A stretch of DNA of 64,000 bases, from positions 124,992,001 to 125,056,000 of the forward strand of contig OX597818.1 in the NCBI GenBank assembly GCA_951406725.2. The letters run 5' to 3'. The notes beneath the pieces were generated by a model that did no database searches, had not been told where the DNA came from, and saw only the letters and a program-made list of their open reading frames with translations. Position numbers and translations under genes: made by a program. Each line of letters begins with the position of its first letter. The first letter of the stretch is position 1. This document shows positions 9,017 to 40,783 of the stretch, in pieces. The DNA is from Octopus vulgaris. Its lineage: Eukaryota.

Positions 9017-9092
9017 ATGATTCTACGGCTAAACAAATTGATGTCGGAGCAGTTCCCTCAAGTTGCTACAAAAGTGAATTCTCTACAACCAG
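9017..9092 (+). CDS. ALPK1: ALPK1-like gene, first coding exon (MILRLNKLMSEQFPQVATKVNSLQP+G)
   Basis: ATG in strong context (ggcaccATG) with an in-frame TAG upstream at 9005-9007. Donor CAG|gtaaaa is phase 1 and joins exon 10485 in frame. The sequence is not itself recognisably homologous. Confidence 0.6.
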
Positions 9093-10484: not shown

Positions 10485-10705
10485 ATGATCTACCTGACAA
10501 GCTGAAATCTGCAGTCACTGAGGACAGAAACCGTGATCTGAATATAATGCAGGTGTCATTAGATCTTCTCTCAGAGAATCTCAAAAAATATTTTGAAAAT
10601 GCCTTACAACAACTTTGGCCCTTTATGCCACCAACCATTGTACCAGACATGATGTTTGAAAAGAACCATTTCATCCCCAAACTGTGCCAAGCAGACCTTT
10701 TGTTG
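10485..10705 (+). CDS. ALPK1: ALPK1-like exon 2 (DDLPDKLK...QQLWPFMPP...ADLLL)
   Basis: Acceptor ttcctcttcag|, donor |gtgagt (phase 0). LWPFMP matches human ALPK1 KWPFVP (F61), recalled from memory. Confidence 0.85.
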
Positions 10706-14126: not shown

Positions 14127-14376
14127 ACTGCTTTGAATTATGCAATTGAATGCGGAGAGTTCCACTATGCTTCAGCCCTTGCATTTGTGGTCGATCGATT
14201 CATGTACTGGTATGGTGGTTCTAAGGTGTTGTTGAATATTATTGATCACATATTGGTACTGAGTCCCTCAACAGTCATTGCTCCACAGTTAACCATCCGG
14301 CGTGCACGTATCATGAAGGATAATGGTAATCTCCATGGTGCCATAGAAGTCCTTGATAGCCTTATTGATTCGAAAG
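14127..14376 (+). CDS. ALPK1: ALPK1-like exon 3 (TALNY...AFVVDRFMY...IAPQLTIRRARI...LDSLIDSK)
   Basis: Acceptor aaccag|, donor G|gtaatg (phase 1). Matches human VFLVDRFLY and IAPQVVIRQARI (R116, R150, R153). Confidence 0.93.
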
Positions 14377-16110: not shown

Positions 16111-16212
16111 CTCTCAGTGAAGATGGCCAGTGGCACTACAGAACTGAGTTTCAGTATATGAATGTTTATGCAGTCTGTGTGCAAATCAAAGGACAGATTT
16201 ATCGCAACTTAG
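16111..16212 (+). CDS. ALPK1: ALPK1-like exon 4 (ALSEDGQWHYRTEFQYMNVYAVCVQIKGQIYRNLG)
   Basis: Acceptor tttccaacccag|, donor G|gtaatg, phase 1 to 1. Matches human [30 protein letters not shown]. Confidence 0.93.
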
Positions 16213-20376: not shown

Positions 20377-20636
20377 GTTTGTGGAAAGAAGCTGTTCCTC
20401 TCTTGTTGAAATCTGTTGAAGAATTTGAGAAACTCCCTGATAAGGACTTGAAAGGCATATCATACTCTTATGGTTTGCTCTCTCATTGTTTGTGTAAGCT
20501 CAGCCATAAGGAGTATTTGGAACTTCAGAACATTTATGTATTTCAGAGAGACCATCCTTGCTATGAGGCATTTGAATATGGCATGAAAGCAGCTGAATTA
20601 TCACCAAAACAGAGTTTGTTTTTTGCAAGACATTGT
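20377..20636 (+). CDS. ALPK1: ALPK1-like exon 5 (GLWKEAVPLL...LPDKDLKGISYSYGLL...KAAELSPKQSLFFARHC)
   Basis: Acceptor attttag|, donor |gtaaat (phase 0). Matches human GMWYEAAELI...LPQPDKKGLSTSLGIL...LAAAFSAYTPLF. Confidence 0.92.
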
Positions 20637-21233
20637 GTAAATATATATCTAATCTTCTTTCTCACACATTTTTTGTTGGCTGGCCACATTATTTTATTTG
20701 CTTATTGTTGTATTGTTACATTTTAGCTGAGAAGGATTTTGGAAGTTTGCATTAGACCCTTGTAAGGTGTTAGATTAATTTTCTTTTACAACTCAATGGT
20801 TCAGTTCATTTGAAATTTTGTATGATGTTAATCACAAGGTCCAAGTCCAAATTTACTGCAGATTTTTTATTGGATTATCTGTTAAGATAATCTCTTATCA
20901 TCTCACAACAATCCATTGGATTGTTTCGTAATTCTGGTATCATTTTGAACCCTTTAGTATTCAGTTTACTCTCTCAATTATAATGATTTGAACTTATCAT
21001 GCATTATCTCCTTGCTTTGAGATTTCAATGATATGGTTGTTTATTTTTAGAATGACATTGTAAGTTAAGTGAAAGAACCTGGATCTGGTCAGATAGAATA
21101 TTTAAGCTGGGTAAGGCTGATTTAAATGCTAAAGTATTAAATCAGCCTTACCCAGCTTAAATATTACTGAGATATATATTTGTAGTTGTAGTTGTCCTCT
21201 CATATTCATAGCAATGTCTTTCCTATATTTCAG

Positions 21234-21451
21234 CTCCAGTCAAGTGAAAGTCTGTTGATGTATGCAGTTCAGGTAACTGATTTGACTCAGCGGAAGAAAA
21301 TATTGGCTGATGTTATTCTGTATCTGCAAAAAGTTATTTTTGCAAACAACATTGCAGAAATTTCAAAGAGTAAGGAGCAATTGTTCATCTTTATAAAAGG
21401 AATTTATGTGATGGTTCTTGTCCTTGGCTGCTCCAATACATCTGCAGATCA
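21234..21451 (+). CDS. ALPK1: ALPK1-like exon 6 (LQSSESLLMYAVQ...SKSKEQLFIFIKGIY...NTSAD)
   Basis: Acceptor tcctatatttcag|, consensus donor CA|gtaagt (phase 2). LLMY and KEQLFIFIKG match human LLSY and KQELHSFVKA. Confidence 0.85.
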
Positions 21452-23438: not shown

Positions 23439-23538
23439 NNNNNNNNNNNNNNNNNNNNNNNNNNNNNNNNNNNNNNNNNNNNNNNNNNNNNNNNNNNNNN
23501 NNNNNNNNNNNNNNNNNNNNNNNNNNNNNNNNNNNNNN
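23439..23538. other. Assembly gap (100 N, probably of unknown size)
   Basis: Run of exactly 100 n. Confidence 0.99.
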
Positions 23539-40190: not shown

Positions 40191-40783
40191 AATCCCTGAA
40201 CACAGGAATATTCTATTCTTTCCTCTTATTTGCCCCCTTCTCCCATTCCTCTTCCCCTTTCACTCCCTTTTCGTCATCCAACACTTCCCTTCCCGGCTCT
40301 TTTACCCATCCCTTCCACCGACTGTTGATACTGCAAGCCTCTTCTAAGCCTCGCCCTCATGCCAGTTTATAAAGGCATGTTCAGTCCAAGTGACTGTCAG
40401 ACAGAATTTCTTTACCCCACAATACAGTGTGCTACTGCATAACACGTTCGCATACGCTCACACACATACACATGCACACACATGCTTACACACACACACA
40501 CACACACACACAAACTGTTTGCATGTAAAAGCTAATTAGTTTGTCAGAAGCTTACATACACACACACACAGACACGAACACAAACGTTAAGACAGGCAAC
40601 AGGCATATTTAAGCACGCATAGAAACATACAAACGTTTCACATACTCTGCTGCCTGTGGATTATGAAGTCGTGCTTACGGCGTGAATTTTCTACACAGAA
40701 TATTTGGTTTTCCTATCCGAAGGCTGAGGCGTTTTACTTACCACAGGTAAATATTGAAAATTGGATTGACTTTCATAATAATA

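What the first reader, a model, noticed from the sequence alone, without database searches (positions are those of the whole stretch)
20445..20468. Tyr at the position of human ALPK1 Thr237 (ROSAH site), and apparent loss of Gln67
Seen: DLKGISYS aligns without gaps to human DKKGLSTS, so TAC at 20463-20465 puts Tyr at residue 237. After WPF the sequence reads MPPTIV, so Q67 appears replaced. The S277-equivalent position appears to be Glu. Established: human T237M causes ROSAH autoinflammatory syndrome and was reported to broaden activation to other nucleotide-sugars. Inference: the phosphate clamp is conserved while the base and sugar contacts differ, so the natural ligand may differ (another NDP-heptose or NDP-sugar).
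Basis: partly seen in the sequence, partly recalled or inferred. Interest (0 to 1): 0.7.

Follow-up and report, generated by a model that had tools for sequence, protein, structure and literature searches.

The report
Octopus ALPK1 with tyrosine gatekeeper residue
Octopuses have a spliced counterpart of the human bacterial-sugar sensor ALPK1 that keeps the phosphate-gripping residues but carries a bulky tyrosine where the human disease-linked gatekeeper threonine sits, so it likely still binds a nucleotide-sugar, probably with a different sugar preference that has not been tested.

Summary
TAC at 20463-20465 is Tyr at human ALPK1 position 237 (gapless match to 5Z2C 209-260). It is identical in 4 of 4 runs laid and spliced in 3 of them. 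All 5 longer cephalopod sequences have it. The gene is an octopus ALPK1 orthologue (six exons; the O. bimaculoides model fits ALPK1 structures at Z 28-29).

Phosphate-clamp residues are kept and Tyr237 is a radical cephalopod change. But Gln67 loss covers all 17 mollusc rows, and Glu277 is the usual invertebrate state. Position 237 has only median conservation: Ser, Ala and Met occur naturally, including the ROSAH allele Met in one shrew record and Ala in three fish lineages. Aromatic 237 arose at least three times. No ligand test was possible.

The context matters more than the single residue. ALPK1 with the sensor domain occurs in molluscs, an annelid, a nemertean and amphioxus, against published statements that it is vertebrate-only. 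Three bacterial STAND ATPases carry a sequence-homologous sensor. The kinase exons are not in the window.

The parts
9017..9092 (+). First coding exon of the ALPK1-like gene (ATG at 9017; alternative ATG at 9041)
   Evidence: tblastn to O. vulgaris and O. sinensis models; GT donor; open six-exon frame
10485..10705 (+). Exon 2; holds F61 (10622-10624) and the mollusc-type lid loop WPFMPPTIV with Val at the Gln67 column (10640-10642)
14127..14376 (+). Exon 3; holds R116 (14196-14198), R150 (14298-14300), R153 (14307-14309)
   Evidence: E 2e-9 to 5Z2C 103-173, no gaps; 100% to the O. vulgaris protein P0002
16111..16212 (+). Exon 4 (skipped in the public O. vulgaris model P0002, present in O. bimaculoides, O. 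sinensis and Argonauta models)
20377..20636 (+). Exon 5; D231 (20445-47), K233 (20451-53), Tyr237 (20463-65), Tyr239 (20469-71), Y254 (20514-16), Glu277 (20565-67), F295 (20619-21), Arg298 (20628-30)
20463..20465 (+). TAC codon, Tyr at human Thr237
21234..21451 (+). Exon 6, last exon of the gene found in the window
   Evidence: splice joint 20636^21234 in 3 of 4 runs
23439..23538 (.). 100-N assembly gap; no later exon of the gene (linker, kinase) is found anywhere in the window

Best explanation
This exon belongs to the octopus orthologue of ALPK1, whose N-terminal helical domain likely still clamps the diphosphate of a nucleotide-sugar (most likely including NDP-heptoses) and is predicted to switch on a C-terminal alpha-kinase, while the cephalopod Tyr237 likely re-shapes the sugar side of the pocket so that selectivity differs from wild-type human ALPK1. 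Shown: the residue, its splicing, the orthology, the kept clamp and the spread of each state. Inferred order: the ancestral animal pocket had Ser237, Gln67, Glu277 and Arg298; molluscs lost the Gln67 lid sequence; a cephalopod ancestor then fixed aromatic residues at 237 and 239; jawed vertebrates separately moved to Thr237, Ser277 and Thr298. One cephalopod-clade fragment has Phe237, so the ring likely acts by packing into the space near the remodelled lid rather than by replacing the Thr hydrogen bond (inferred, not modelled with a ligand).
For: Orthology: profile E 1.2e-43 to 5Z2C. The AlphaFold model of the O. bimaculoides protein matches 9j4p Z 28.9 (rmsd 3.2, 380 aligned) and 5z2c Z 28.7, against 18.9 for the next family. 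The Argonauta orthologue has a kinase closest to ALPK1's (E 6e-46 against eEF2K 3.5e-18). The sensor-domain tree groups cephalopods (98/98), gastropods (98/98) and vertebrates (100/100). Pocket under constraint: F61, R153, R116, R150, D231 and K233 rank 2-20 of 239 columns, while three divergent mollusc proteins (P0019, P0045, P0048) have lost most of them, which shows what a decayed pocket looks like. The Tyr lies in a helix modelled at pLDDT about 98. Human T237M and T237A still respond to ADP-heptose but also to UDP-mannose and ADP-ribose (PMC10723048; PMC11614533). Phe237 in P0063, which groups with the cephalopod-like P0175.
Against: No ligand-bound model or assay was run, and the tools gave no coordinates, so where the Tyr side chain points is unknown. 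Position 237 has only median conservation (rank 127 of 239), and Ala, Ser or Met there are natural in vertebrates, so substitutions may be compensated with no change of ligand. Tyr is larger than any substitution tested in the papers read and could block the site. None of 7 Octopus gene models scanned has a kinase domain, and the window has none. TIFA was not searched for in cephalopods. The roles of Q67, D231, F61, F295 and R116 as ligand contacts are recalled from Zhou et al. 2018, which I did not see; the papers read confirm only R150, R153, K233 and T237.
Confidence: 0.45

Rival explanations
1. Neutral, compensated drift: Tyr237 rotates away or is buffered by neighbours, and the protein senses NDP-heptose just like human ALPK1.
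For: 237 has median conservation. 68 of 150 rows could be read at 237: S 30, T 19, A 8, Y 4, F 2, G 2, M 1, V 1, E 1. Human-pathogenic or gain-of-function states occur naturally: Met in Sorex fumeus; Ala in Arapaima, Anguilla and Denticeps. ALPK1 from fish to mammals is reported to signal comparably (PMC11573728).
Against: 35 of 36 longer non-cephalopod animal rows have a small residue (S, T or A) and the other has Met. Tyr is fixed in 5 of 5 cephalopod rows together with Tyr239. In human cells even T237A changes specificity.
Confidence: 0.2
2. The natural ligand is not a heptose at all but another diphosphate compound such as ADP-ribose or an NDP-hexose, perhaps because molluscs make their own NDP-heptose.
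For: The lid loop is remodelled in all 17 mollusc rows and the gatekeeper is replaced, while the clamp is kept. Two commentaries say heptose-making enzymes occur in Mollusca or some eukaryotes. Bacterial homologues also lack Gln67 (0 of 3).
Against: D231 and K233 are kept. I did not test whether cephalopods have heptose-making enzymes. Most other molluscs lack Gln67 yet keep Ser237, so the two changes are not one package.
Confidence: 0.2
3. The Tyr plugs the pocket, or Octopus has lost the kinase, making a ligand-independent or decoy protein.
For: No kinase domain in 7 of 7 Octopus models scanned or in the window; Tyr is bulky.
Against: Argonauta, with the same Tyr237, has the kinase. The O. 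sinensis models end inside a 15-residue tandem repeat, the O. bimaculoides models end just after a motif that precedes the kinase in Argonauta, and the window has a gap after exon 6, which points to assembly or annotation breaks (inference). The clamp is fully kept.
Confidence: 0.12
4. Sequencing error, or a genomic Tyr recoded to Cys by A-to-I editing (common in coleoids, recalled), so that the protein has a small residue.
For: TAC would read as TGC if edited (inference). Contigs drop rare variants.
Against: No other letter in 4 of 4 runs, 3 of them spliced. Tyr in four further cephalopod proteins, one from a Logan contig.
Confidence: 0.03

Closest known systems
[quoted passage not shown]
   Same: Same fold in the model (Z 28-29); 35% identity over 235 residues to a marmot orthologue; F61, R116, R150, R153, D231, K233, S236, Y254 and F295 kept.
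   Different: Tyr237, Tyr239, no Gln67 (shorter lid), Glu277, Arg298, Leu232; kinase exons not in the window; ligand and substrate untested.
ROSAH variants T237M, S277F, Y254C and laboratory T237A
   Same: Same position changed away from Thr, so the reported hydrogen bond to a sugar hydroxyl cannot form as in wild type.
   Different: A fixed, clade-wide aromatic state on an invertebrate background whose default is Ser; Y254 is kept; Glu277 is the usual invertebrate state and not a disease-like change.
RefSeq 'alpha-protein kinase 1-like' proteins of Octopus sinensis (XP_029636967.1, XP_036358960.1), Haliotis, Patella, Pomacea, Liolophura, Lineus and Branchiostoma
   Same: The window's gene is the counterpart of the O. 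sinensis gene already given this automatic name.
   Different: The names are automatic; no functional or evolutionary study turned up in the search listings; the other invertebrates named have Ser or Ala at 237.
Bacterial STAND ATPases with a TPR-like sensor (P0062, P0066, P0080)
   Same: Their C-terminal domain matches human ALPK1 39-257 at E 6.5e-21 and keeps F61, R116, R150, R153, K233, S236 and an aromatic at 295; like cephalopods they have Tyr239 and Arg298 and lack Gln67.
   Different: NB-ARC-like ATPase instead of a kinase; Ser or Ala at 237; Glu or Asn at 231; the predicted fold does not single out ALPK1 over generic TPR proteins (Z 19.6 against 22.7).

Membership tests
ALPK1 orthologues | N-terminal helical domain homologous to ALPK1 residues 1-446 | tested here: met
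   (E 1.2e-43)
ALPK1 orthologues | C-terminal alpha-kinase closest to ALPK1's in the same polypeptide | tested here: inconclusive
   Met in Argonauta and in other molluscs, an annelid, a nemertean and amphioxus; not found in the window or in 7 of 7 Octopus models scanned, probably through assembly breaks
ALPK1 orthologues | Tree placement consistent with vertical descent | tested here: met
   Sensor-domain tree groups cephalopods 98/98, gastropods 98/98 and vertebrates 100/100; midpoint root only, deep nodes weak, no kinase tree with ALPK2/3
ADP-heptose receptors | Phosphate clamp R150, R153, K233 (papers read) and R116 (recalled) | tested here: met
   5 of 5 cephalopod rows
ADP-heptose receptors | Thr237 hydroxyl gatekeeper | tested here: not met
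   Tyr; but Thr is also absent from lamprey, bichir, eels, arapaima and one shrew ALPK1, so it does not define the orthologue group
ADP-heptose receptors | Gln67 lid contact (role recalled from Zhou et al. 2018) | tested here: not met
   0 of 17 mollusc rows; kept in amphioxus, Lineus, Owenia and vertebrates
ADP-heptose receptors | Kinase activation by NDP-heptose | not testable with these tools
   needs an assay
ADP-heptose receptors | Signalling through TIFA Thr9 | not tested
   no octopus genome was held and no TIFA search was made

The most novel reading that the evidence does not exclude
The ALPK1 pocket is an ancient nucleotide-sugar sensor module, shared with bacterial NLR-like STAND ATPases and present across bilaterians long before vertebrates. 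Molluscs, reported to make NDP-heptose themselves, re-tuned it by dropping the Gln67 lid, and cephalopods added a Tyr gate, so that octopus ALPK1 detects a different nucleotide-sugar or ADP-ribose-type signal.
Probability: 0.2. Interest if true: 0.85.

Novelty: new variant of a known kind. Interest (0 to 1): 0.57.

Why it matters
Two 2024 commentaries on Tang et al. (Science) state that ALPK1 occurs only in vertebrates and arose after deuterostomes lost heptose synthesis. The sensor-plus-kinase protein found here in molluscs, an annelid, a nemertean and amphioxus, with the clamp intact, contradicts that account and raises the question of how animals said to make NDP-heptose avoid self-activation. 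The natural series at residue 237 (Thr, Ser, Ala, Met, Tyr, Phe) gives a ready panel for testing the ROSAH 'gatekeeper' model, including one mammal record with the human disease allele, and could inform pocket-selective drugs. The Tyr itself is a moderate lead until assayed.

Tried and rejected
Base error and majority RNA editing at the TAC codon: rejected. No run is on record as RNA ('no RNA holder listed'); splicing is read from the joints only.

Gln67 loss and Glu277 as octopus-specific: rejected.

Tyr237 as unique: rejected. A gastropod-like fragment (P0102, Tyr237/Phe239, SH-aLRT 98 with gastropods) and a non-mollusc fragment (P0131, Phe237) also have aromatics. In one search P0102 fell among the cephalopod rows on a very long branch, which I attribute to its unrelated N-terminal part.

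My first exon model had a wrong acceptor and went out of frame (its WIN row is invalid from exon 5 on); corrected. Exon 2 alone does not hit ALPK1 in the PDB, and exon 5 alone ranks designed TPR/PPR repeats above ALPK1.

The fold of the bacterial protein did not single out ALPK1 over other TPR proteins, although animal rows were in the folding alignment. The Atlas gave only generic TPR clusters. PADLOC gave one weak TPR hit in 3 proteins. No further bacterial copy was found in 400 other genomes of that phylum at E 1e-6; 6 of 7 genome loci and 2 of 3 metagenome loci matched only the ATPase part.

Paper searches for Q67/D231/F295 contacts gave nothing usable. No complex prediction was run because it cannot score a ligand as partner. 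Earlier scan notes held nothing relevant (one unrelated note).

Full report
1. The observation. Bases 20445-20468 encode DLKGISYS, with TAC at 20463-20465. They lie in an exon at 20377-20636 with AG and GT ends. The exon alone matches human ALPK1 (5Z2C) residues 209-260 length for length, but weakly (E 0.003). The O. bimaculoides protein P0003, identical over this motif, aligns to 5Z2C 32-261 at E 1.9e-30 with no gap near the site, and a four-row mollusc profile gives E 1.2e-43. So the Tyr is residue 237. It is not an error: 4 of 4 runs laid (4 of the 24 listed, from 4 studies) show no other letter across the exon, and 3 of them join 20636 to 21234 at GT..AG. The other two remarks also hold: Val stands in the Gln67 column and Glu in the Ser277 column in 3 of 3 alignment modes, numbered on a marmot orthologue.

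2. The gene. Six exons (9017-9092, 10485-10705, 14127-14376, 16111-16212, 20377-20636, 21234-21451) splice into an open frame of 375 codons. Exon 3 is 100% identical to an Octopus vulgaris protein, and the model is 94% identical to O. bimaculoides. RefSeq already calls the O. sinensis counterpart 'alpha-protein kinase 1-like'. An AlphaFold model of P0003 (47-row alignment; pLDDT mostly above 90 over about residues 81-460) matches the three ALPK1 entries at Z 28.0-28.9, against 18.9 for the next family. The Tyr sits in helix 279-293, which follows the Asp231 equivalent and also carries Lys233. No later exon is found in the window, which has a 100-N gap at 23439-23538. None of 7 Octopus models scanned has a kinase domain. 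Argonauta hians, with the same Tyr, has one whose best PDB match is the ALPK1 kinase (E 6e-46; eEF2K 3.5e-18). I infer that the Octopus models are cut by assembly or annotation, but this is not shown.

3. How special is each change? A profile search of 1.84 billion representatives gave 211 hits, of which the best 150 were returned. After leaving out one incomplete gene model (P0002) and two repeat proteins, and adding P0004-P0006, 68 of 150 rows covered residue 237 with a readable Lys-Gly motif: S 30, T 19, A 8, Y 4, F 2, G 2, M 1, V 1, E 1. Dropped rows were fragments of other parts or divergent copies, among them P0013, P0019, P0045, P0048, P0056 and P0058; the Val row looks mis-spliced. In a hand-picked set of longer rows (5 cephalopod, 12 other mollusc, 3 other invertebrate, 2 cyclostome, 19 jawed vertebrate, 3 bacterial; fragments and the three divergent mollusc copies left out), Tyr237 and Tyr239 were the only fixed cephalopod-private sites in residues 40-300; the other 36 animals had S 17, T 14, A 4, M 1 (the hagfish row aligns poorly here). 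One of the five cephalopod rows, P0175, is unnamed and is called cephalopod only because its cluster representative groups with the octopods (98/98).

Against: 237 ranks 127 of 239 columns in conservation, whereas F61, R153, R116, R150, D231 and K233 rank 2-20. Gln67 is absent from all 17 mollusc rows but kept in amphioxus, Lineus, Owenia and vertebrates. Glu277 is in 5 of 5 cephalopods, 10 of 12 other molluscs and 3 of 3 other invertebrates, and goes with a basic residue at 298. Aromatic 237 recurs in a gastropod-like fragment (P0102) and a non-mollusc fragment (P0131), and a cephalopod-clade fragment (P0063) has Phe. Named vertebrates also deviate: Ser in bichir and lampreys; Ala in Arapaima, two Anguilla species and Denticeps; Met, the ROSAH allele, in Sorex fumeus XP_055972616.1 (one record, not checked in reads).

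4. What is known. [quoted passage not shown] PMC11614533 (passages and section 3.5): T237A is even more open, S277A behaves as wild type, T237 is called a gatekeeper, and R150 binds the phosphates. PMC11573728 and PMC11461863 (part 1 of 2 of each, covering the main text): ADP-, CDP- and UDP-heptose activate ALPK1 alike; ALPK1 and TIFA are said to be limited to vertebrates; heptose-making enzymes are said to occur in protostomes including Mollusca. PMC2827801 (passages) names only eEF2K among the human alpha-kinases as present in invertebrates. PMC6752478 (passages) calls Thr237 highly conserved in vertebrates. Passages of PMC10221265, PMC12420824, PMC13143021, PMC13179400 and PMC13366308 and part 1 of 2 of PMC8985801 added nothing on contacts. 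I did not see Zhou et al. 2018 or Tang et al. 2024, whose supplements may list invertebrate sequences; the roles of Q67, D231, F61, F295 and R116 are recalled. No paper on invertebrate ALPK1 or on a bacterial copy of the domain appeared in the listings (top 15-25 of 63 to 2,894 papers each), which is weak evidence of absence.

5. Mechanism. Shown: orthology, splicing, a constrained diphosphate clamp, and the residue states above. Inferred: the domain binds an NDP-sugar and controls a kinase. Three mollusc copies that lost the clamp show that decay is visible when it happens, and it has not happened in cephalopods. Inferred with less support: the Tyr ring packs near the remodelled lid and changes sugar selectivity. 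I give 0.45 to 'still an NDP-sugar sensor, likely including heptoses, with shifted selectivity', 0.2 to 'same profile as human', 0.2 to 'a non-heptose ligand', 0.12 to 'blocked or kinase-less' and 0.03 to error or editing.

6. Wider finding. [quoted passage not shown] Their own profile finds human ALPK1 39-257 at E 6.5e-21, and they keep F61, R116, R150, R153 and K233. P0080 is encoded on a 55.8-kb Crocosphaera contig among ordinary cyanobacterial genes, next to a NeuB-family gene (L001). P0066 lies near integrase, HNH and AbiEii genes (L009). The domain is rare: 0 of 400 other genomes of that phylum matched, which also shows that the profile does not pick up TPR proteins in general. The predicted fold does not separate ALPK1 from other TPR proteins (Z 19.6 against 22.7, though identity is 21% against 13%), so this link rests on sequence. 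The tree gives no direction of transfer (long branches, no root).

7. Verdict. Observation confirmed; interpretation partly supported; a new variant of a known kind. The Tyr alone is a moderate, testable lead. The invertebrate distribution, the natural alleles at 237 and the bacterial homologues lift the interest to 0.57.

Noticed in passing
P0023 (Sorex fumeus XP_055972616.1), residue equivalent to human 237: A shrew ALPK1 record carries Met at 237, the human ROSAH allele; Arapaima, two Anguilla species and Denticeps carry Ala, a gain-of-function change in human cells. Single shrew record, not checked in reads.
   Followed up: partly
L001:5668-8022 (+), P0080; L009:4029-6626 (+), P0066; P0062: Bacterial STAND ATPases whose C-terminal sensor is sequence-homologous to the ALPK1 ligand-binding domain with the phosphate clamp kept; rare (1 of 401 genomes searched); fold evidence inconclusive.
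   Followed up: partly
P0007, P0011, P0012, P0014, P0016, P0017, P0018: ALPK1-type sensor domains in abalone, limpet, apple snail, chiton, amphioxus, a nemertean and an annelid (kinase confirmed in all but the short apple-snail record), against commentaries that limit ALPK1 to vertebrates.
   Followed up: partly
P0019 (Potamilus streckersoni), P0045, P0048: A divergent mollusc clade (100/98) that keeps the kinase but has lost most clamp residues: possible ligand-independent or re-purposed paralogues.
   Followed up: no
window 21234-21272 and about 40700-40747; protein P0002/P0182 (CAI9723490.1, CAI9723489.1): The public O. vulgaris gene model looks chimeric: it skips exon 4, cuts exon 6 short and continues across the N gap into an exon of an unrelated, hydrophobic protein.
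   Followed up: partly
window 20565-20567 and 20628-20630: Glu277 and Arg/Lys298 occur together in invertebrates and switch to Ser/Thr together in jawed vertebrates; Arg298 is also in 3 of 3 bacterial rows. Possibly a salt bridge or a lost ligand contact.
   Followed up: no
P0003, P0004, P0176 linker region (outside the window): Octopod ALPK1 linkers hold long Cys-containing tandem repeats (15 residues in Octopus and Argonauta), dozens of copies in Argonauta, which may explain broken assemblies.
   Followed up: no
window about 20990-21125: A very high-copy repeat inside intron 5, seen as a depth spike in all 4 runs.
   Followed up: no
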